DNA of 64,000 bases from Podarcis filfolensis (Eukaryota). The translations under genes and the position numbers were made by a program. Positions within the stretch are counted from its first letter, which is position 1. Each line of letters starts with the position of its first letter. Under the pieces are notes generated by a model. That model was not told where the DNA came from, did not search any database, and saw only the letters and a list, made by a program, of their open reading frames with translations. The stretch lies in assembly GCA_964270895.1 (NCBI GenBank), contig OZ185436.1; one strand, given 5' to 3'. Shown in pieces: positions 8,112 through 64,000 of this stretch.

Positions 8112-21123
<13,012 letters not shown>

Positions 21124-52000: not shown

Positions 52001-54104
52001 ACCAAGAAGGCCCTCTCCCATGGCTCCACACAGCATGCCTGTGAGGGTGATGGGCCTCCCCCTAAGATATCAAAACCCAGGCAGGCTTGTATGAGGAGCA
52101 GCTGCTATCCCTGTGCAAAGTGAGAGCACACTTCCAGACTCTCCAGCATAAACTCCTCACTGGGGAATGAGAAAGGAAAGTCCACAAAGAAATAGGAGAT
52201 TGGGAGTGTGTAAGTACAAAGGCCCCAGAACATTTGAGTAAATGCAGGGCCACTATGTGTACTTTTACCATGAAAAATGCCAGCTTCTTGCCATATACTT
52301 GGGGTAAAAAAATGGAAGGCATTTTTGTTTTGACAATATTTTCCAGCTGGATAAAAAAGTATCTCCTTTAGGTTTAAAAACAATAAACATTTGCCTTGAA
52401 TTGTTTTTTGTGCTGCTTGTATGGCATATTTGCAAACTACCATGAGAAGCATGTAAAAGGCAATTCGTAAATTAAAAAGTTATAATGATACTTACAAGAA
52501 ATACTTTTTCCTGATTAGGGTGATGGGCCTGCTAAAGACTTAAAGCCCGAACAATTTGGCAATAATCCTAGGTTTAAAAGTGATTTTTAGTAACATTTTG
52601 ACAAAAAACCCATCGTTCTGTGCTGGCACATTGATTTGAAACATAACCCCTTCATATTGAGATGGGATTTTTTCCTAGCTGGCAAGCAGCTCTTCCTCCT
52701 ATGTGGGAACAACCTTTCAGAGAAAAACTGATTCACACATTCCCCAACTTTGAAGACTTACGTAAGATTGAACTTGAAGTTAAACTGCCATGTGTTGATC
52801 CCAGCAGGGTATTCGCCTTTCTCATTTGTGAAGGTCAGGCCTAGCTGGATGATTTTCAGCAGATCAACATTGCATCGGAGCAACTGATACTGATAGTCTA
52901 TAGAGCTGCGAAATTCACCTATTGGTCGAACAACCACCCCAGGAAACTCTGTGTCCTAGAAAAACAAAGAGAAGTCCAACCCAAACCTTGTAAGTTCTAT
53001 TCACAGATATAACACACACCAATGCAATAAACACCACAGACTATCTCCTGAATTCTGCACTTGCCGGCTTCCTGGCATCAGCGTCACGAAAAGTTAATTA
53101 AGCATGCATAAAATAATGCCTATAGCCAACTGCAGTTTCTCTTTTTGTGGCCCTTTTCCTTCTTTGGTGAAACATCTGCCCCCCCCCCAGCCATTCTAAA
53201 ATGGGAGATAGTGAGAGAATGCCTGCAGCACTACAACTGCATAGCCACTCCTCCCCCTGGATACAGAGGCACATGGTGATTCAGATGCCCTTGGCAGCTG
53301 TTTTTCCAGCCTGTTGCAGGCACTATCTGTGCACTATCTGCAAAGTGAATCCTTCATGTGCCATTGCCCCTGAATTCAACGGAAGGAGTAGAGATACAAG
53401 GTGACTGGGAGGGACAAGGGAATGAAGGACAACAGGAATGCAACAACAACAAAAAAAGGTTTTCTTCGCCTACAATTTAAACAATTTAAATTTAAACATT
53501 ACCAAACTTAAAACCATGGAGAGACCTGGTCTGAACAAAGACATTGGATTCTTATCTCATTATACATGACAAAGCCATTTTTCACCTTCTCACCCCTTGC
53601 TTTTTCCTGTAAGACCTATTGCAGTCGTTAAGAGTCGTCAACAGGCTCATCACAGCTATCTGCCACCACCCATTCCCACCACCCTTCTGAGTAATACCCC
53701 TCCCCACCTTCTCACTATATAGAAGGATCTGGCAACTTAACCTCATTGCAAAAGGAACTTTGTACTTGCTTATAGCTTCATCCCCTACAGCCCAAACCAA
53801 TGAAGCTAGGCATTTGCTCATCTGATATCTCAATCTGCATTAAGGACACTGAAAATCCTCCTAAATTTCATCAGGTGTTATATCACATCTACCAATTAGC
53901 TGAACACACTAATTTAAGCTATAATAACTCATTTGTCTACATATAAATCCTATATTTAGAAAGCTGAATACTGGAAGACATATTTACCATTGCGATGTAG
54001 CTGTAACTAAGAACTATTTCCCGAATTTTTCTCATTTCCTCTTCTAGATTATTTGCCCATACTTCGCAGATCACCTGACTGTTTTCTGCAAGTGCCGCTG
54101 GCAT
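48934..54104 (-). CDS. CNOT8: CCR4-NOT deadenylase subunit 8 (CAF1/POP2 family, DEDD nuclease), complete spliced CDS, 292 aa
   Basis: complement(join(48934..49083,49262..49372,50566..50710,51427..51588,52762..52955,53988..54104)) = 879 nt. Starts [31 protein letters not shown], contains DTEFPG and [11 protein letters not shown], and ends [12 protein letters not shown], which is CNOT8-type rather than CNOT7-type. Confidence 0.97.
49262..49372 (-). CDS. CNOT8: CNOT8 coding exon 5
   Basis: [37 protein letters not shown]. Confidence 0.97.
50332..50531 (+). mobile_element. Penelope-like element 3' fragment, copy A
   Basis: About 98% identical over about 191 bp to 53548-53738, which carries the Penelope ORF end. 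Confidence 0.75.
50566..50710 (-). CDS. CNOT8: CNOT8 coding exon 4
   Basis: [48 protein letters not shown]. Confidence 0.97.
51427..51588 (-). CDS. CNOT8: CNOT8 coding exon 3
   Basis: [53 protein letters not shown]. Confidence 0.97.
51660..52110 (-). mobile_element. L2 LINE 3' fragment
   Basis: Reverse complement of the L2-type tail (agggccttcttggtggctcc..ttggaacgccttccc), A/T-rich tail. Confidence 0.55.
52762..52955 (-). CDS. CNOT8: CNOT8 coding exon 2
   Basis: [42 protein letters not shown]. Confidence 0.97.
53490..53738 (+). mobile_element. Penelope-like element 3' fragment, copy B
   Basis: 53498-53569 translates [23 protein letters not shown], the GLNxDxGFLSHY-type C-terminus of Penelope GIY-YIG ORFs. 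Confidence 0.75.
53988..54104 (-). CDS. CNOT8: CNOT8 first coding exon (whole exon 53988-54170 including 5' UTR)
   Basis: [39 protein letters not shown], acceptor catatttag| at 54170. Confidence 0.96.
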
Positions 54105-56899
54105 CCTGAGGGATTTGCACCACAATCACAAGAGCAGGGTGGGAGCGCCAAGATGTCAAGATAAACCACCCTAAATATGTAGGGAAAATGACAAGTGCTT
54201 ATTCCAGCAAGATATTCATTTCAGAGAAAAACAGGGAGAAAAACATCAGGGACAGGGAGTCCAATCCTATACATGGTTACTTAGAAATAAGTCACAGATG
54301 GCAGAGTTCCACTCAAGACTTCCCCTTTCTCTCCCTGCATACCCTCAAAATCAGCTCTAGGGGCTCTCCCCAACCCCCAGATCAGATTCTGAGGGGAAAC
54401 AATAGCAAAGCTGTAGCCACTGTCTGGTGAGCAAGGTTATCAGTGGTTTATTACAGTATTTTGTATCTTCCTTAAGGGTATAAACACTAAAACGATTGCA
54501 TTTTCTACATTTGTGTTTTGCTGTTTCGAAACAGGCGTTTGTGTAATTCTTATACTGACTGGAAGACAGATCCGCTTTCTCCAGCAACACCCCAGAGACT
54601 ATGCATAAGGCTTGTGCCCTGGATCCTTGTAGACTGCAGCAACTAGAGACATACAGGACATACTCCTTCAAGGCTCCATATATTGGCCACAGGATGTTCT
54701 TTTTGAGCAGGCATTGTACACAATTCTGCCACAGCATGCACATTTTCCAGTGCATCTTGGATATTACAATTTAAATAGATCCATTCCACACAATGCAGGA
54801 ATTGGGCCTTGTTGTGGCACTTACCCTTTGAAATTTCCTCCTCTTGAATATTAAACAAGTCTTCAGTAGTCTTTTCAGTGACTACTGAAGACCTTCTTTC
54901 AACAGCCTTTTTAAGTTGAGATCTTTTCCAGTCTGATTTTGTGCATATCAGAACTGTTGTTAAGATATTTTTGAAGATATTTTTGCTGTTTTGCCTCTTG
55001 TTGTTTGCTGCCCAGGTTCCTCTGGAATGAAGGATACGATATAAAATTAGTAAATAAATATGCATCTTGACCAGAGAATGTTAAGATATGCACATTCCTA
55101 AAAGACTGGTGTTTTAAAAAAAGAAATTCAAAATGCACAAGGCATGCATTGCTGCTTCTGCCTCCTGAAAAAGTCCATTGAAAATCACTCTTATTTCTTC
55201 CCATGCAAAGGCAAAAGGCAAAGAACTTGGGAGAAGAATATTTATTTTGGGTTCACAGAACAGGGTTATTCAATGTGGCCAAGTTTGTGGGTGGCACCAA
55301 TTTCTTTTACAGTAGTGAACACCAAAACAGATCACAAAGCATTTCAAAAGGATCTTTCTGAATGGAGTGAAACAGCAACATAGGAATTGGCCTCCACAGT
55401 CACTTATGAACTCACTATTAAGACCATATTCATGGAAGACAATCTTACTCAGCTACAAGTGATCGCCAAAGAAGGAGGCGGCAAATGAAGTTGTTAAGAG
55501 TAGTATGATGAACTTTGGTGCAAAAAATATCAATTTCATATATATACCAATGGAGGCTGAACTGGTAATAACTACCCAGGAAAAAAATATTTCCATTTAG
55601 AAAAAGAAAGATGAAACATAATACAGGTTTATAAAAACTAAACACAGTATAGAGAAATCAGAAATAAAAACACATTTTTCCCTCTCTTGTAATACAGTAA
55701 CAGAATGTTAAACTATGGAATTCACTACCACAAAATTGGTGACGATATTTACTTCCAGTCTCAAGATCTAGTAGTAACTTGGCTTCCTCTCTTATGGTGC
55801 TATATTTCACACTATTTTGTCTAACCTTTTGACTATGAAAACTTTAGGCTTCTCAGAATTGCTTGTTGTGAAACAAGGATTTTGTTTTAAGCCTGCTGCT
55901 CTGAGTGTTCCTAAACACAACCAAGTGAACATTCTTTTCACTATTTTATATGAATCTGCCAGAATCTTTTTCTAAACCCAAGTAACCTTCAGTAAAATTA
56001 TCTGCCCTAAAAACCATGCCATTATTCTGAACATTCTTCTTGCATTTCCTTATTTATATTTGCTTTTCAGAGTAGCAGTAACAGTACTAAAAATGCATAA
56101 AAATCAACAGGATTTTTGCCTCACAAGTTTGAGAAGAACAATCTTTGCCTTCCTACAGATGCTTCAAACTGTGCTGTTTCCAAAATATTCTCTCTATGAA
56201 ACCCAAGTTATATCTTAGATATTAAGAACTTTCATTATGTATAATCATTTTTAACCCAACAGTCTTTAAAGAAAACCTCATGTAACAATCTCAAAATTCT
56301 TAAACTATGTCCACTAGTTCCAAGTATATTATTATATTTGTTAATTACGCTTCACCACGACACTCCAGAGTGTTACATCTAAAATAGGCAATACAATACT
56401 GTACAGTACATCATTTTAATCAGACTGTTCCGCCTCACCCAAACAGCAGGTAATACTGTTTACTGATCAATCTACTTCACATTCTGCTTTCAGTCAGTTA
56501 TACAAATCCAAAAAAGCAGGATTTCCAAATTATTCCAAATCATCCCTCAAACCCCTTTAACAAGGCAAACCACCCAGACATTTCTTTGCCAGAATTAGCT
56601 TCCTATGCTCCACCCCAGAAGTTAAGGAATATCTGTATTTTCTTGCAGCCTTTGCTCTCCCTCTTTGGTTTTCTCCTTGCCCTGGAAGCTTCCACCCCTC
56701 CAAGCATCACCCGCATCCAACACCCTCCTCCATTCGTTCACCAGTACTTTTCGGCTACTGTCTCAACTCCCCCGAGCGGGAATACAGACTGGAGTAAAAA
56801 AAAATACCAATTTTCTGCTTAAATGCGAGGCCTCCTTCGATCTCCGTAACAGGGAAGGAGGCCGGGGGTTAGAAATGTAAGGAAACAAGGACGAAGAAA

Positions 56900-57860
56900 C
56901 AAATCGGCTTAATAAAGAGCACAATATTCTTACACGCAAGAGAGTCTTTTGTCGCGACGAAATCTAGACCGACCTGGACTATGTGACTTCGCAGCAGAAG
57001 CCTCTCTCGTCCCTGATCCCTTCCAACAGAGAGGGAATATTCTCTCTCACGAAAGAAGCATTTGCAGGACAACTTGCGCGCGTGTGTGTTTCTCCGCCCG
57101 CCCCCCGCGATGCAAGAAAAACCTCTCCGCGCGGAAGTTTAGGCCCTCGCTTCTACGTGCCTTGCGCGGAAGGAGGAGGAGGAAACGACGACGCCACAAA
57201 CCTCTGAGGTGCTGGAGCCCCTGCTCTGCCTTCCCCACCTTGGGAGCTACGCAAGCGAGAACCGAGGGTTTGAAAAAAACACCACCCACAACCAGGAAAT
57301 CCGGTCAGCAAACAAAGGAGCTTTCCCGCCCGAGACCCTCCAGAGGCTCCTCCCCCTCCCCGCCCTCTCGACCCCCAACCTCTCCTCGCCTGGCCTAAGG
57401 CCTAAATGCGAGCCCAACGCCTCACCAGGAGCGCGGGGAAACCGAGCGCCGGGCCGTTGCTCCTTTCCGCCGCCTTGGTCTTCCTCTGGTGGGGTCCCTT
57501 CTAGGCTACCGATTTTCCATCGCTCGATGGTTTGCTGAGCTGGGCGTCTTTTTCTCTCTATCGCTCTGTTTTTCTCCCTACACGCATGCGCTCTAAGCGA
57601 GCCTTTCTGGGGCAGGAAGCATCCGGCTTTCCGTAAGAGACGCCGGAAAGAGGAAAGAGAGTGTTCACTTTTGCACGTGAACACTGCCTGCAGCGGCTCC
57701 TCCTCCCCGCTGTGTTCCAACTGCGCCTGCGCCTGGGAGGCGTTGGGTAAACCCAATGAGCAACGCGTGTCCTGTCGAAAGGGATGGCTGAGTTTTTTGT
57801 TTTATGCGTTATGGAGCAGGACTCAACGGCGGCAGAGCCCGCCCAGAAAGGAGGAGAGGC
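56900..57860 (-). promoter_or_regulatory. CNOT8 CpG-island promoter with probable non-coding first exon ending at 57426
   Basis: CpG-rich. NRF1-type ACGCATGCGC at 57582-57591 and TGCGCCTGCGC at 57722-57732, CCAAT at 57752-57756, and a minus-strand donor CTG|gtgagg at 57426/57425. Confidence 0.7.
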
Positions 57861-58140
57861 AGCTATGAAAGCGATCGAGCTGTTTTGTTTTGATTCTGGC
57901 AAACTCTGCTTCAGCAGTTGATGCAGCAATCCGAAAAGCACCCTGGTTTGGGAATAATAATAAGCCCCCTTGAACCCCGTGCGATTCATTCCCATAAGAT
58001 TTATTCCCGAGTGAGAATGCATGCTAATGCGCCATGACAGTAATGTTAAGCACACTTGAGACCTGGTTCTGGACTTTGAAGTAAATCCATTTCAGGTCAC
58101 TGGGAGTCATTCCCAAGTAATTGCATTACAGTCTTTAACC

Positions 58141-58770
58141 TGATACGGAAGGGGGGGCATGTCTTCTTCACCTTCTTCTTCGCTACAATATATCAATTTC
58201 TTTCCAATTGTCAATGTCAAAAGGGACTAAAATCTATAAAATTCATAGAAAATCAACGTGCCAATTTGCTCAATTTCTCTAGGACTCCATCACACCTCCC
58301 CTGTCCTCCATAATCCCTCAAACAAGGTGTCAAGACCCTAATCCTGTCAAATCACTCTGCCTCCAGGAAATGCCAGTACATGGACCATTGTCTTCTCATC
58401 AGGATGTGCTTATCTGCGCATATCTCCAGCTCTGCATATTCCCCCCTCCCTCCTCCATATGTTAATCCTGTGTAACCCAACCTCTTCTTAATGTATTCAT
58501 GATGTAATCTGTGTAACCCAACCTCTCTTTAATGTATTCATGATGTAACTGGGATGTATTTTGCACTGTATTCTGGGACATGGAGGGAAGTTTCAAAAGT
58601 TTATGTCACCCCTTTCTTGCGGTTCAATCTCGCCTTGAACCTGTTGCGCAATAAACGTGGATCTTCTGCAGCTTGCTCCTGTCTCCGGCTGAGCTCATTT
58701 TCCTCCGCAGGGACTAAGTCCGACGAGCTGGGTGGCTGAGCAGCCTCGCACCCAGATTTTTACCGTAACA
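58141..58770 (+). mobile_element. 5' LTR of an endogenous retrovirus / LTR retroelement (about 630 bp)
   Basis: Imperfect terminal inverted repeat TGATACGGAA...TACCGTAACA (8/10), AATAAA at 58650-58655, a tandem duplication in U3, and a PBS 2 nt after the end. Confidence 0.8.
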
Positions 58771-58772
58771 GA

Positions 58773-58790
58773 TGGCGCCCAACGTGGGGC
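58773..58790 (+). promoter_or_regulatory. Retroviral primer-binding site, tRNA-Lys1,2 type
   Basis: TGGCGCCCAACGTGGGGC, the 18-nt Lys1,2 PBS known from betaretroviruses, some lentiviruses and foamy viruses. Confidence 0.92.
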
Positions 58791-60178
58791 TTTGCGGTTC
58801 TCCTGTGTTGCTGACCAGGGGCCCTGAAATCTTCAGCCGGCACCGGGCCATTTTGCCTGGGAAGATCCTTTGGACCCCCGGCCATCTTCCGGGCGGTAAT
58901 CAAAGCCCCAGGAGTTCAGCCGGGGAGCAAAGAGGGATCCAGCCGGCTTATTCGTCGATCCCGGGATCATCATAGAAGACACGTGAGTATAAGGAAAAGG
59001 AAAAATCCAGTGCACTGGTGGGAAGGGGGTGGAAGTCTCCTGGCAACTGAATTCTCTGCCCTCCTCTCTATCGCTCCTTCTTGCCTTTCTCTTGGTCCGG
59101 TTAGTGAGAGAGACCGTGGACCGCTGCTCGACCCGAAAGGGGGGTTCTGAGCTCTATCTCTTAACTCTTAAACCCTCCAGCCAGCCGCACCAATTGGGAG
59201 CCCGAAAGTAAGACGGAGAGAGCCGACTTGAAAGACAGCCGACTCTCCGCAACGGGCATCTCAGTTGAAAGCAAGGGGTTGGAGCTCTCTTTCCGAACTT
59301 CCCTAGCGCCCGGCAAGGGGGCAGGAAGGGGTCTGGCTTTCTGTCTCAATCCCAGCCGCACTGGTCGGTGCCACGTAACACGTGTATCGTGCGTGAGCCC
59401 GCTTCCAAAAGCAAGGGGGATTTTCGGTTCAAAACTCTATCCAGGGATCACCCGATCTGGCACCGCACGGCGCGGGCGTTCAGTAGGGCCCCTTTTCCTG
59501 AGATTGTGACGATAGGTAGGAGGTTGCCAGGAGGGATAGCCCATGAGGAATTGGGCGGGATCGGCAGAGTGGAAAGGAACCCCAGGTTATTAAATAGGAA
59601 ATAGGAAAGGAATAGAAAAAGGAACCAAGTGGGTGGAGCTCGTTAAACCGTTAGGAAGTTGCCAAGCAACAAGGAAAAGGAAAACCCTAAATAGCCCCCT
59701 GTACAAGTTACCCAAATCCTAATCAACCCCTCTCTTTCTCCCTTCTCTATCCCAGACACCCCCCCCAAAAAAAGAAAAACAACAAAAAAGCAACAGCAGC
59801 AATGCATGCATATATAAAGGGGTACCCAGTCAACCAAGCGTTGTGAGCCCTGCCAGTTTGATTAACTGGTGGTGTGTTTGAAGAGGCAAGGAAGCTCATA
59901 AAACCATGTGGGACCTTCCTACTAATTTCACTTAATGAAGCCAAAGGAAGCGGCCCAACTCCTTGCGATAACCAACTAAAGAATGAGAATACATATGTTT
60001 ACATATTGTCTGTTATGTGTGTTGTCTGTTAATACATATATGAGAATATGTATGTTTACATGTTGTCTGTTATGTGTGTTGTCTGTTCCTTCTGTCTCTG
60101 ACAGACTGCCTTTCTTAAGTGTGCATAGTTTAAACTACAAGCTTGCTTCAAAATTTAAATCTAGGGAAGCCATGCTGG
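58791..60178 (+). mobile_element. ERV internal leader region (no recognisable gag), ends at an assembly gap
   Basis: Follows the PBS. GC-rich structured start, donor AC|GTGAGT at 58982/58983, 3' splice site ending at 59755, TGTCTGT-rich repeats typical of retroviral leaders. The right boundary is uncertain. Confidence 0.6.
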
Positions 60179-60311
60179 NNNNNNNNNNNNNNNNNNNNNN
60201 NNNNNNNNNNNNNNNNNNNNNNNNNNNNNNNNNNNNNNNNNNNNNNNNNNNNNNNNNNNNNNNNNNNNNNNNNNNNNNNNNNNNNNNNNNNNNNNNNNNN
60301 NNNNNNNNNNN
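60179..60311. other. Assembly gap (133 N) between the ERV leader and the tubulin tail
   Basis: N run. Confidence 1.
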
Positions 60312-60450
60312 GAGGAAGAGGAGGATTTCGGCGAAGAGGCCGAGGAGGAAGCTTGAGGCGAGTCTGCTGGCAGTTCGGGAAACAAAACAGAAAAGTCAAT
60401 AAATCCGCACAAAAATAAAAATTGAAAAACAGAAAAAAACAAAAACAAAA
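60312..60450 (+). pseudogene. TUBB: 3' end of a class I beta-tubulin retrocopy (C-terminal tail, stop, short UTR, AATAAA, decayed A-tail)
   Basis: 60312-60356 translates EEEEDFGEEAEEEA*, identical to the TUBB (beta-I) isotype tail. AATAAA at 60398-60403, A-rich tract at 60411-60450. The 5' part is hidden in the N gap. Confidence 0.8.
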
Positions 60451-62009
60451 TGAGAATGAAGGGTGCAAATGTTTGTTATTTGAGAGAGGCTCCAAAGAGT
60501 CTTCCTCCGAGTAGCTTAAGTGAGGAGTATGATTTTAAGTTGATGGTAGATAATGTTATGTTGCAACCTTTGAGTTTGTGATTCTACATCCGTGTTCCAG
60601 TCCTTTTTCCAGTATTTTGAAATGTGCTGTGAAGAAACTAATGTTTCTGCTGCAAAAGCCTAGTTGAGCCAACTGCTCTCTCAAGCTAAAATGCAGTGTA
60701 TGTATTTCATTAAGCACATGCCTATGAAAATAGGTGTTCCTTCTAAGAAAATTGTTAATAAAAGGTAGAAGCTTTGATAGACAACAATTGTCTATCTATA
60801 GAGTCCAGTCCTGATATCAGTCTCTAAGATCAGCCAGGGTTTCCTGGCTTCTTATTGGAAAATGCCTCCCCCACTTGTTTCAGTCTCTTTCAGGTTCTCC
60901 CCCCCCCCCTTCTTACTTCTGTGCCAAATGAATTTACTCCTGAGCAAGCTTCCTTCAACAAGGGAGGGCGGCACATTCTTTGCTAAAAGTACCCGACATC
61001 TCACTTTCCTATGTATCGTTATTATTATTTTTTAAAAGTCTTAATTAGGCGTACTATTCCTATGCAAGTTCAGAAACATTATTAACTTTTGTATCCCTTT
61101 TAAATCAAATCCAGGACATCATTTCTGTAGGAACTTGCACTCTTAGTCTAAGGAAGTAAACTCTCACTCAAACTAGCTTCAAGATCTGCTAAAAGGGTTC
61201 TGTATAAAGCTGGGTACTTTTATTTTCCTCTTCCTTAGTACATGATAGGAGCATTGATTGTGCTCTCTTCCCCAGTAGTGCCTGTGTACATAAGTATGTG
61301 TGTGTCTCTTTGGTAGTACAAATCTTGCTGCGAAATCTTGCTGTGAACCCTATATTTTGGAGGGTTGGACTAGATGACCCCAGGGTCCCTTTCAACTCTC
61401 CCAATTTGTGGCTGTGTGGAAGGACATGTGTCCGCAAGCATTGGAGGGTAATTCTTAAATTCTGGTGTGGTGATGGAGTTGAAATTCAGCCTAGCTTTGC
61501 TCTTTAGTTTTAAAAGGTGAGAGGTGAAGCTGTGATGTTTTGAAGCACAACTGGTAATATCAAGCATTTGAGTGATTACAGTGTTTATCATTTTGTCTAC
61601 TATTTAAAAATCAGACTTCAAAGTCAATTCAAAGTTTAAGCACATACAAATACATATGGGCCTTGACCAATCCTGTAAATAAAGGGCAGGAAAAAATTTT
61701 TGTCTGCAAATGGTAAGGCTGAAATGTTAAAAAAAATCCTATGAATTCTGACTCTCTGGCCATTTTTTCCCATATATAAGGGCGTGGCATTGTTCCGCGA
61801 ATGACCAGAGGGAAATCACACAAAATGATAGCCCTTTCCTGTAAATAAAGGAAGGAAACATGATCCCTTAGAAAATTTCTAGCTTTGGTAAATGCTTGAA
61901 TTGCGGAGTTTCTTGTTTTGTTTTAAATCTAACCCTATTTTTAAAAATCTACTCCTTACCCTTCATTTCCTTGATTCAAATGGTAATTTAGCCAAAAGAT
62001 TCAACATTT

Positions 62010-62222
62010 TCAATAGTATAAAAGGTTTGCTGAGACATGAACTCTGCACATGCACAGAGGCTAGATCAGCTAAAAAAAGGAAAAGAAAAAGAGAGAGGAA
62101 GGAGAGGGGAGAGGAGGTTTGGAGAGCTTGGGCTGCAGGGAGAAACATCCAAATTTCCTTATGTAAAACTTGGAACCATTGAGGGAAATCACCCTTAATG
62201 TGTCCTTTGCTCCAGGGGCTAC
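62010..62222 (+). other. Candidate promoter / non-coding first exon of the next plus-strand gene (FAXDC2 expected by synteny)
   Basis: TATAAAA at 62017-62023, DR1-like TGAACTCTGCAC at about 62038, consensus donor AC|GTAAGA at 62222/62223. No FAXDC2 coding sequence was recognised. Confidence 0.2.
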
Positions 62223-62886
62223 GTAAGACAAAAGAGTTAAGTACTGGACCGTCAAAGTCAGGGGGTTGCCAAGTTTCAAATCTTAACCTGCCAAATTCTT
62301 TTCATAGGTAAATATCAAAGCATTCCCCCCCCCCTCAATGGGATGTAAATCACAGACTTTGTTTGTGTGTATTTTAGGAACAGCATTTCCTGACAGGCTT
62401 CTCACATGAAATAATTTTCCCTTTTAACAGGATATGTGAACCCCGATAACAAAGTGTTTGTCCCTTCTTTTCTCCCACAGCAACTTTCTTTCTGTTCTGT
62501 AAAACAAGTCTGAATCCCTGCTATATTAGTGACTTCCATCTCTTTGCGGCTTTGACACTTTAAGTTACAAGTAATTAAGTTACAAGTTTTCATTTATTTA
62601 TGTCTATGAAATTAATTGAAGCACAACCAAACATTGTTTGTGGAATGGTATTTGTTTACCTTTTGCCTGAGCATTTCTTATTAATTCTGTCATTTTGGCT
62701 AGTTCAAGGTACTTACACAACCTTAAATTGCCATTCATTTTCTTGGTATTAAGTCATTTCCCAGTATTTTGCTATTAACATCCTAGCCGATATTGTCACA
62801 TCAAGAAACACTCTTTTATTTTCATTGTTACTTCAGATTTCTTAAAATTGTGTGTCTTAGCATTTATTTATGGTTCCTCATAGGTC

Positions 62887-62888
<2 letters not shown>

Positions 62889-62918
<30 letters not shown>
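62889..62918. repeat. (TG)15 microsatellite
   Basis: Pure TG run. Confidence 0.95.
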
Positions 62919-62922
<4 letters not shown>

Positions 62923-64000
62923 ATTATTATTTTAACCTTGTATTTTTTTTTACAGTTCTCTTTCTCTACATATGGAGTAATTTTTTATTTAATAATATGG
63001 GAGGGAGACGATAAAAACCAAAGTGAAGGAAAGCAAACAAACTTAGCAGATAATAACAGTAATTATATGGAAATGTGATAATAATATTGAAATGAATAAA
63101 ATGCTTAATCCGCTAAGATTTTTATTATTTGCAGCTTCCCACGGAAACTGAAGGACATCCTTTTTGCCTTTCTCCCCTTCCCTTTTCTAACTCTGTCTTT
63201 TAAGTCCCCAAAACCCTGCCCCTTACAGGATATCACTTCTACAAATGTGTTACTACAGATCCAATTAAAAGCTTCGCCACCACAAGACCTGCAACAACAA
63301 CAGACACCAAAGTTTTCAAAGTGGCCACAGCTATCTCTTTCAAAGGATATAGACTGCCGGGGGAGTGGGCCTGACAAAGGGGGGAGGAGTTGAATTGCAA
63401 GGACATTTTCTCACTTTTGAACCTCAAGACTGTGCTCTGGCATTGAGAAGATACATGCGTAAAAATATCACAATTGTCTCAAGATATGCAACTGATACTT
63501 AATTAGTTTGTTTTGTATTATGTGTTATTACGTAGGAATGTTGAAATGTGTCTGACAGTGTGTTATTTCCACAAATGGGGGGGGCTATTTTTGTGGCTAT
63601 TTTTGTGTGTAATTGTTTTTATGTTTAATGTCTTATTCCTTACACCCCAGTGGAGGATTCTCATACATTTTATGCCTTTTAACAGATCAGGCTATTATGT
63701 AGTCCAATGTTTAGAATTAGATAAATTTATAACCACATTTCGTTGTTTCACCTGGCACTCTGCCAACTTCCCTAACCATTTTAAAATGTGCTAAAACTCA
63801 CTTTACCAAGGAGGAGCTTCAGGAAGGTGTATATGCTTTGGTTTAGCAGGAATAATCCCTTATAGAGTTAAATTGACTTATTTGGACAAGTGCCCCTTAA
63901 GAGTGGTTTTGCTTTAACAGATTGGTTTGAAAAGTTGAGAACCATGGGGCAAGATAAATTCAAATTGGACTCAGTTTGAATTGGGCAAGTGTATCCAGGC

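What the first reader, a model, noticed from the sequence alone, without database searches (positions are those of the whole stretch)
58141..60450. Possible chimeric transcription unit: retroviral LTR, spliced leader, beta-tubulin tail and poly(A)
Seen, all on the plus strand and in this order: an LTR, a Lys1,2 PBS, a splice donor (58982), a strong 3' splice site (59755), a good-context ATG just before the gap (GAAGCCATGC, ATG at 60172), then after 133 Ns the TUBB C-terminal tail, stop, AATAAA and an A-tail. No gag, pol, env or 3' LTR is visible. Established: retroviruses can capture cellular mRNA 3' ends by recombination during reverse transcription, and LTRs can drive retrocopies. The beta-tubulin acidic tail is the site of polyglutamylation and of MAP and motor binding. 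Inference: this is either an ERV that transduced tubulin mRNA, or a TUBB retrocopy that landed in an ERV leader and supplies its poly(A) site. Either could make an RNA, and possibly a short peptide ending in a free tubulin E-hook. The frame across the gap cannot be known.
Basis: partly seen in the sequence, partly recalled or inferred. Interest (0 to 1): 0.85.

Follow-up and report, generated by a model that had tools for sequence, protein, structure and literature searches.

The report
Tubulin mRNA scrap inside young provirus
A 215-base piece of the end of the host's beta-tubulin gene sits inside one copy of a common non-coding endogenous retrovirus, most likely pasted in afterwards by a LINE-1 retrotransposon, so it is probably an ordinary dead retrocopy and not a virus that captured and spreads tubulin.

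Summary
The listed features are there, but they do not form one special unit. The LTR belongs to a complete 7.2-kb provirus whose 3' LTR lies 714 bases past the window end. It is one copy of a young, non-coding, gamma-like ERV family. PBS, donor, acceptor, the ATG at 60172 and the 'A-tail' are family sequence. The only foreign part is 215 bases (60214-60428) identical to the end of an intron-bearing beta-tubulin gene 45 Mb away; 0 of 29 sibling sites carry it. It ends 22 bases after AATAAA, has almost no poly(A), and is flanked by a 19-22-base duplication at a TT/AAAA site with no ERV sequence lost. Young L1s in this genome make 14-19-base duplications with the same spacing. Best reading (0.8): a near-tailless, 5'-truncated LINE retrocopy nested in the provirus. 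Capture by the ERV's own reverse transcriptase is the rival (0.12). The ATG at 60172 is out of frame with tubulin, so an E-hook peptide is unlikely. The splice was not seen in two thinly covered RNA runs. The scan's notes held no earlier report of this; one loosely similar fungal case gave a literature lead. Low interest.

The parts
58137..58140 (+). Left copy of the 4-bp target-site duplication of the provirus (repeated right after the 3' LTR)
58141..58770 (+). 5' LTR, 630 bp, TG..CA, AATAAA at 58650. Its partner 3' LTR lies beyond the window at window-equivalent 64714-65352 (G000:C2:59584714-59585352), after a purine-rich PPT-like stretch; 2 substitutions and 2 indels between the two LTRs
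58773..58790 (+). Primer binding site for tRNA-Lys(CTT)
58980..58988 (+). Retroviral major splice-donor motif; family-wide (37 of 39 copies) and identical in 4 of 4 coding relatives checked; use not shown
59735..59756 (+). Polypyrimidine tract and AG acceptor motif; family-wide (37 of 39 copies); use not shown
60172..60174 (+). ERV-family ATG (28 of 29 empty siblings); here it opens a 31-codon frame out of phase with tubulin
60193..60216 (+). Left copy of the duplicated ERV target; starts at the TT/AAAA site of the empty allele; one homopolymer run is 2 bases longer than in the right copy; last 3 bases shared with the tubulin piece
   Evidence: own-genome copy of this place
60214..60428 (+). 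Beta-tubulin insert, 215 bp, 100% identical to the parent gene (G000:C2:14.73 Mb, minus strand): last ~46 codons (in-frame Met403 codon at 60228), TGA 60354-60356, 72 bp of 3' UTR with AATAAA at 60398 and 60414
60426..60447 (+).
60448..64000 (+). Rest of the non-coding internal region of the provirus; continues to window-equivalent 64713 with a 36-codon env-end remnant at 64534-64641
57000..58000 (.). Context: host CpG island, probable promoter of CNOT8 (first coding exon on the minus strand at 53985-54104), about 0.15-1.1 kb upstream of the 5' LTR

Best explanation
A 215-base copy of the 3' end of a beta-tubulin gene lies inside one copy of a non-coding ERV, flanked by a 19-22-base duplication of the ERV target, and was most likely reverse-transcribed from tubulin mRNA into the already integrated provirus by a LINE (probably L1). 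Step 1 (shown): a 7.2-kb non-coding LTR element with near-identical LTRs and a 4-bp target duplication integrated beside the CNOT8 CpG island. Inferred: it was mobilised in trans by a coding gamma-like ERV family that shares its LTR end, PBS and leader. Step 2 (inferred): a LINE endonuclease nicked the most A-rich TT/AAAA site of the element. The long T-rich primer annealed at the A-rich end of the tubulin mRNA, at the start of the poly(A) tail or just inside the UTR, which would leave almost no tail. cDNA synthesis stopped after 215 bases and rejoined through 3 shared bases, duplicating the target. Consequence (inferred): the piece is a dead, promoterless pseudogene fragment. It adds a poly(A) signal 2.3 kb into the provirus, which would cut genome-length RNA short and hinder further spread. 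A tubulin-tail peptide is unlikely.
For: Single copy: 0 of 29 sibling sites, 0 of 60 longer loci; the 3' UTR is found only at the parent gene and here. No ERV sequence is lost; 19-22 bases are duplicated, starting exactly at TT/AAAA. That site has the highest A content of the 17 TTAAAA sites in a 7-kb sibling (18 of 22). The insert ends 22 bases after AATAAA. L1 machinery is present and young: 131 of 131 scored matches at 95-100% amino-acid identity, more than 50 with open frames of about 1,200 aa. 16 of 20 young L1 copies show 14-19-base duplications (1 of 380 shuffled pairs reaches 12), 17-33 bases after AATAAA. An older L1-clade family also shows duplications (6 of 29 at 12 or more, against 1 of 812). 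The closest siblings match without a substitution from 60006 to 60178 and from 60448 to 60885, so no change of parent lineage is seen at the insert. Other family copies took secondary insertions too: a CR1-type LINE and a Copia element. These hallmarks are the ones Tan et al. use to separate L1 from LTR retrocopies (PMC5131818, passages). Tailless retropseudogenes are reported in the green anole (PMC5322556, passages).
Against: No real poly(A) tail: at most 1 untemplated A, whereas the young L1 copies mostly end in runs of about 8-13 A. The duplication is at or just above the upper end of the local L1 range, and its two copies differ by 2 bases in a homopolymer; empty alleles also vary there (6 of 20 parsed differ from the common pattern). 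The insert lies wholly in the last exon, so intron loss cannot prove an RNA intermediate. The real mRNA 3' end was not seen, because the read tool skipped 60411-60462. The insert is in sense orientation with 3 shared bases at each end, as capture also predicts. The ERV family is mosaic elsewhere, so it recombines often. The site has two T's about 10 bases upstream, partly fitting the Bov-B signature (PMC13295347 passages), so the LINE clade is not fixed. Local L1 targets are looser than TT/AAAA. No independent read or contig was shown to span either junction.
Confidence: 0.8

Rival explanations
1. LTR-mediated retroposition: a co-packaged tubulin mRNA was copied by two template switches of the ERV reverse transcriptase (A-rich ERV stretch to poly(A) start, then back through 3 shared bases), and the chimera integrated as this provirus.
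For: Sense orientation, both LTRs intact, short shared bases at both joints. The ERV family is young and mosaic, and coding helpers exist. The mechanism is documented in fish, chicken and mouse (PMC5131818 passages). Insert and LTR ages cannot be separated (0 of 215 and 2 of 630 differences).
Against: In Tan et al. all 15 Drosophila cases replace part of the element and lack TSD and L1 site (median shared stretch 6 bp). Here nothing is lost, and a duplication of L1 length starts at TT/AAAA. No lineage switch at the insert. No second copy.
Confidence: 0.12
2. DNA-level templated insertion: a break at the A-rich site was patched with sequence copied from the tubulin gene (or its RNA) on the same chromosome, without a LINE.
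For: No intron junction in the insert, no poly(A) tail, short shared bases at both ends, donor on the same contig.
Against: Repair patches usually leave deletions or very short duplications (general knowledge, recalled). They do not predict an end 22 bases after AATAAA or a 19-22-base duplication at TT/AAAA.
Confidence: 0.05
3. Assembly or sequencing chimera.
For: No independent run was shown to hold the junction (where the tool leaves out these stretches).
Against: The own-genome copy is continuous in a 125-Mb contig. Both flanks are adjacent in siblings, and a clean target duplication is not what mis-joins produce.
Confidence: 0.03

Closest known systems
L1-mobilised 5'-truncated mRNA retrocopies (processed pseudogenes); hallmarks as in PMC5131818, PMC4476161, PMC2912911 (passages read)
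   Same: 5' truncation, end near the poly(A) signal, target duplication of 15-20 bases, TT/AAAA site, short 5' microhomology, single copy
   Different: No poly(A) tail; too short to show intron loss; nested in a provirus; host is probably a lizard (inferred from repeat types recalled and genome size, not from a call)
Tailless retropseudogenes (PMC5322556, passages read; reported there in therians and the green anole)
   Same: No A-tail, 8-35-base target duplication, L1-type target, A-rich RNA end matching the primer
   Different: Most described cases are small RNAs; this is a 5'-truncated mRNA end that stops at a plausible cleavage site, so priming at the first A's of a true tail is equally possible
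LTR-mediated retrocopies (Tan et al. 2016, PMC5131818) and transducing retroviruses; HERV-K/FAM8A1 as cited there
   Same: Host mRNA piece in sense orientation between two LTRs; short shared bases at the joints
   Different: No part of the element is replaced, L1 hallmarks are present, no spread to other sites
Non-autonomous derivative of a class I (gamma-like) ERV
   Same: Two LTRs, 4-bp duplication, PBS, PPT-like stretch, major donor, env-end remnant; LTR end and leader 80-86% alike to a family with Gag_p30, RT/RNase H/MLV-type integrase and TLV_coat
   Different: No gag or pol; a tRNA-Lys PBS where gammaretroviruses typically use tRNA-Pro (recalled); no family name could be tested, as no repeat library was on hand

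Membership tests
Canonical poly(A)-tailed L1 processed pseudogene | Parent gene with introns elsewhere | tested here: met
   100% match to a gene with coding exons over 3.7 kb at C2:14.73 Mb; residues 94-444 match a 444-aa beta-tubulin without a difference in the printed alignment
Canonical poly(A)-tailed L1 processed pseudogene | Intron loss | tested here: inconclusive
   The insert lies wholly within the last exon
Canonical poly(A)-tailed L1 processed pseudogene | Untemplated poly(A) tail | tested here: not met
   At most 1 untemplated A; hence not filed here but as near-tailless
Tailless / near-tailless LINE retrocopy | Target-site duplication of 8-35 bases | tested here: met
   19-22 bases, against the empty allele of siblings; local L1 range 14-19
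Tailless / near-tailless LINE retrocopy | L1-type nick site TT/AAAA | tested here: met
   The duplication starts at TT/AAAA; 17 such sites per 7 kb on both strands
Tailless / near-tailless LINE retrocopy | RNA 3' end complementary to the primer, no tail | tested here: met
   Parent and target share A-rich sequence at the 3' joint; which RNA end was primed is not shown
Tailless / near-tailless LINE retrocopy | Active L1 in the genome, able to act in trans | tested here: inconclusive
   A young L1 family with full-length ORF2 is present; trans activity not tested; Bov-B not excluded
LTR-mediated retrocopy / transducing retrovirus | mRNA piece in sense between two LTRs | tested here: met
LTR-mediated retrocopy / transducing retrovirus | Part of the element replaced; no TSD or L1 site at the joints | tested here: not met
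   Nothing lost; duplication at TT/AAAA
LTR-mediated retrocopy / transducing retrovirus | Microsimilarity beyond chance at both joints | tested here: inconclusive
   3 bases at each joint; the 5' triplet occurs at 1.9% of exon positions; also expected for truncated L1 products
LTR-mediated retrocopy / transducing retrovirus | Further copies of the chimera | tested here: not met
   0 of 29 and 0 of 60 loci; one genome only
Non-autonomous class I (gamma-like) ERV derivative | Paired LTRs, short TSD, PBS, PPT | tested here: met
Non-autonomous class I (gamma-like) ERV derivative | No coding capacity; cis sequences shared with a coding family | tested here: met
   0 of 17 window ORFs with a Pfam hit; only an env-end remnant by tblastn; 16 of 20 other Lys-PBS loci share LTR end and leader, 15 of them with long frames, typed on one copy
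Non-autonomous class I (gamma-like) ERV derivative | Placement by RT phylogeny | not testable with these tools
   The element has no pol; the class is taken from the related coding family (best PDB matches are p80 RT/RNase H chains, E 8e-167, far above the foamy-type Pol chains at 2e-43)

The most novel reading that the evidence does not exclude
The ERV captured the tubulin mRNA end by template switching, and the resulting provirus, sitting just downstream of the CNOT8 CpG island and in sense to the FAXDC2-like gene 30 kb on, acts as a gene trap. RNA from the LTR or the island splices to the 59755 acceptor and ends at the tubulin poly(A) signal, and leaky scanning or reinitiation at the tubulin Met403 codon makes a free 42-residue helix-12-plus-E-hook peptide that could compete for tail-modifying enzymes and MAPs.
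Probability: 0.03. Interest if true: 0.65.

Novelty: new member of a known kind. Interest (0 to 1): 0.15.

Why it matters
It matters little. It is a clean, very young example of an mRNA retrocopy in a probable lizard genome, with the empty site known from dozens of sibling proviruses, and it fits the published suggestion that lizard L1 can act on other RNAs. It could serve as a dating or population marker. The provirus itself, beside the CNOT8 promoter island and upstream of a FAXDC2-like gene, is the likelier source of any effect on host expression, with or without tubulin. Only proof of capture before integration, or of a translated free tubulin tail, would make it notable.

Tried and rejected
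Tubulin in sibling proviruses: none. Pfam on 17 ORFs of the element: no hits. Rfam on 56500-64000 at E 0.1: no hits. Pfam Transposase_22 search of the genome: 0 matches with silent controls, so uninformative; L1 was found by other routes. Sequencing-run search: no RNA holder listed; the best DNA share was 0.68, which the ERV part alone can give, so no evidence on the junction. Read laying (2 RNA raw-read runs, about 12% and 6% read; 2 DNA contig runs; window 58500-60800): no 58982-59756 joint, but depth at the acceptor bin was 0.12 and 0, and these animals may lack this provirus. A 59078-60112 joint had 2 reads in one run, below the listing threshold. The tool skipped 60411-60462, and DNA contigs gave no cover over the tubulin part, so the junction, the mRNA end and polymorphism stay untested; 92 loose ends were not shown. 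Tubulin-tail reads there cannot be told from parent-gene reads. Paper searches: beta-tubulin + processed pseudogene + direct repeats + polyadenylation gave 0. Searches listed no report of a tubulin retrocopy in a reptile ERV; only listings and find-passages were seen and no supplements were read. The supplements of PMC5131818 and PMC5322556 hold case tables that may bear on how often duplications occur in LTR-mediated cases and on the anole data. bioRxiv 10.64898/2026.06.26.734816: passages only, no mention of tubulin. No fold, complex or protein-homolog job was run, as no protein is in question. In the first TSD scan one row was an artefact of overlapping windows and was dropped, leaving 29 of 30. 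The LTR-end offset was off by one and was redone.

Full report
Observation. The PBS complements the 3' end of host tRNA-Lys(CTT) genes: ARAGORN called Lys(CTT) in 2 of 4 loci taken from 15 pattern matches. Three statements are wrong or incomplete: the 3' LTR exists, the A-tail is not a poly(A) tail, and the frame is known.

The element. The window lies at G000:C2:59520001-59584000 of a 1.5-Gb genome. I take it for a lizard from repeat types that I recall; no call names it. A second LTR lies at window-equivalent 64714-65352, 629 of 640 columns identical (2 substitutions, 2 indels), with the same 4 bases on both outer sides. The LTR search scored 40 of 841 candidates, all 96-100% alike. Of 20 LTR loci examined, 14 were solo LTRs with a 4- or 5-base duplication, 5 belonged to full elements and 1 was not parsed. 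The internal search scored 40 of 95 candidates. I fetched 37 of these whole, plus the tandem pair at C2:0.86-0.88 Mb. Most are about 7-kb two-LTR elements, and the frames of 250 codons or more that were found lay outside the aligned element or in secondary insertions. Those insertions include a CR1-type LINE (clade label recalled) and a Copia element. None of 17 ORFs of the window element hit Pfam. tblastn with a relative's gag, pol and env found only a 36-codon env end. Of 52 exact Lys-PBS sites in the genome I fetched 20 that were not siblings. Sixteen share the LTR 3' part and leader at 80-86%, and 15 of those carry long frames. One was typed as Gag_p30, protease-RT-RNase H-MLV-type integrase, and TLV_coat. 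So the element is a non-autonomous derivative of a gamma-like ERV; mobilisation in trans is inferred. Two LTR substitutions in 630 bases mean a very young insertion, under about 1 million years at an assumed 2-3e-9 per site per year (inference).

The insert. The tubulin 3' UTR matches only two places: here and an intron-bearing gene at C2:14.73 Mb, whose last exon encodes residues 94-444 of a 444-aa beta-tubulin ('class I/TUBB' is recalled). The match spans window 60214-60428, 215 bases, 100%. At this site none of 29 siblings holds tubulin; 28 show the two anchors 18-48 bases apart and in one the right anchor was not found. The window's own copy has 262 bases. No tubulin was found in 60 longer loci. 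The own-genome copy shows no loss of ERV sequence. The A-rich target is present twice, 60193-60216 and 60426-60447, a duplication of 19-22 bases depending on how 3 shared bases at the 5' joint are assigned. It starts at TT/AAAA, and the left copy has a homopolymer two bases longer. At the 3' joint 3 A's are shared, or 1 A is untemplated. The right copy begins 22 bases after the first AATAAA. The closest siblings match without substitution over 173 bases left and 438 bases right of the insert, though the family is mosaic elsewhere.

Mechanism. Tan et al. (PMC5131818, passages) list TTTT/AA site, poly(A), TSD and 5' truncation as L1 hallmarks. They report that in all 15 Drosophila LTR-mediated cases part of the element was replaced and these hallmarks were absent. 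This insert has three of the four hallmarks and replaces nothing. I tested whether the host has such machinery. A frame 19 kb past the window matches human LINE-1 ORF2 (E 1.5e-73) and finds 131 copies at 95-100% identity, more than 50 with frames near 1,200 aa. Of 20 such copies, chosen for long frames and mostly outside contig C19, 16 have 14-19-base duplications (median 17; 1 of 380 shuffled pairs reaches 12), set 17-33 bases after AATAAA. Against the reading: those L1s carry short A tails and looser targets, the tubulin duplication is at the top of their range, and intron loss cannot be tested. The missing tail fits priming by an unusually T-rich primer; the site is the most A-rich of 17 TTAAAA sites in a sibling. 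Tailless retrocopies are described, also from the green anole (PMC5322556, passages; PMC4476161, passages). Bov-B cannot be excluded: its reptile signature is three T's ten bases upstream of a TA nick (PMC13295347, passages), and this site has two. PMC2912911, PMC3747384 and PMC5381506 were seen as passages only and give background on TSD length, relaxed RNA recognition and lizard L1 diversity.

Transcript and peptide. Donor and acceptor motifs are in 37 of 39 family copies and the ATG in 28 of 29 empty siblings, where its frame varies from 15 to 60 codons, so none is tied to tubulin. In the window the ATG is out of phase with the tubulin stop and closes after 31 codons. A tubulin-frame Met codon at 60228 could give 42 residues, but 13 ATGs lie between the acceptor and the insert, and five of them open out-of-phase frames that overlap it. 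In two RNA runs no 58982-59756 joint was listed, at very low depth and in animals that may not carry this provirus. Reads on the LTR U3 were abundant in one run and some ended at 58670, 15 bases after the LTR AATAAA, but only 6 of 410 reads were 99% or more alike, so they come mostly from other family copies. Nothing shows this locus expressed, and nothing shows it silent.

Context. The provirus starts just past a CpG island (57000-58000) that likely drives CNOT8 on the minus strand (first coding exon 53985-54104). FAXDC2-like exons lie on the plus strand at window-equivalent 94.7-98.3 kb (gene name recalled from synteny and a fatty-acid-hydroxylase hit below the Pfam cut-off). Whether the provirus is inside that gene's 5' intron is unknown. 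Any trapping would come from the provirus's own acceptor and LTR poly(A) signals as much as from tubulin.

Verdict. A real feature, ordinary in kind: a near-tailless, 5'-truncated LINE retrocopy of beta-tubulin nested in a young non-coding ERV (0.8); ERV capture 0.12; repair patch 0.05; artefact 0.03. New member of a known kind; interest 0.15. No report of this case was found in the searches, which cover open-access text only.

Noticed in passing
window 11240-11317 (-), 21000-50000 (+), 53985-54104 (-); L188:5455-5559 (+); L189-L190 (-): Host gene order: ribosomal L22-like exon, GEMIN5 exons, CNOT8 first coding exon, then past the provirus fatty-acid-hydroxylase (FAXDC2-like) and LARP1 exons.
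   Followed up: partly
window 57000-58140: The provirus integrated just downstream of the CNOT8 CpG island, in sense to the FAXDC2-like gene; a GT donor-like site at about 57631 on the plus strand could splice into the ERV acceptor. Untested.
   Followed up: partly
L037-L039 (G000:C2:861759-884878): LTR-internal-LTR-internal-LTR tandem with 11.2-kb period, each unit carrying the same CR1-type LINE insertion; the closest relatives of the window element around the insert.
   Followed up: partly
L100:3669-9828: A Copia-type element nested in reverse orientation in another family copy.
   Followed up: partly
L166-L185: A coding gamma-like ERV family with a tRNA-Lys PBS shares LTR end and leader with the non-coding family; 4 of 20 Lys-PBS loci are unrelated to it.
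   Followed up: partly
G000 contig C19 (L192-L200 and rows): More than half of the 131 young L1 hits, and many Lys-PBS sites, fall on the 43-Mb contig C19, suggesting a repeat-rich sex-limited chromosome (inference).
   Followed up: no
L113-L118, L124 (small contigs C77 and C54): Closely spaced, about 1.1-1.3-kb repeats of beta-tubulin 3' coding pieces on two small contigs, some beside a whole last exon; a tandem partial duplication or an assembly artefact.
   Followed up: partly
window 17654-18359: 67-bp minisatellite, 10.5 copies, 94% alike.
   Followed up: no
window 58463-58548 and 59983-60087: 41-bp tandem duplication in the LTR U3 and a 57-bp-spaced duplication in the leader; the leader one is present in the siblings aligned.
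   Followed up: no
window 59078-60112: Two reads in one RNA run join these positions with 4 other letters between; below the listing threshold and probably from a sibling with a deletion.
   Followed up: no
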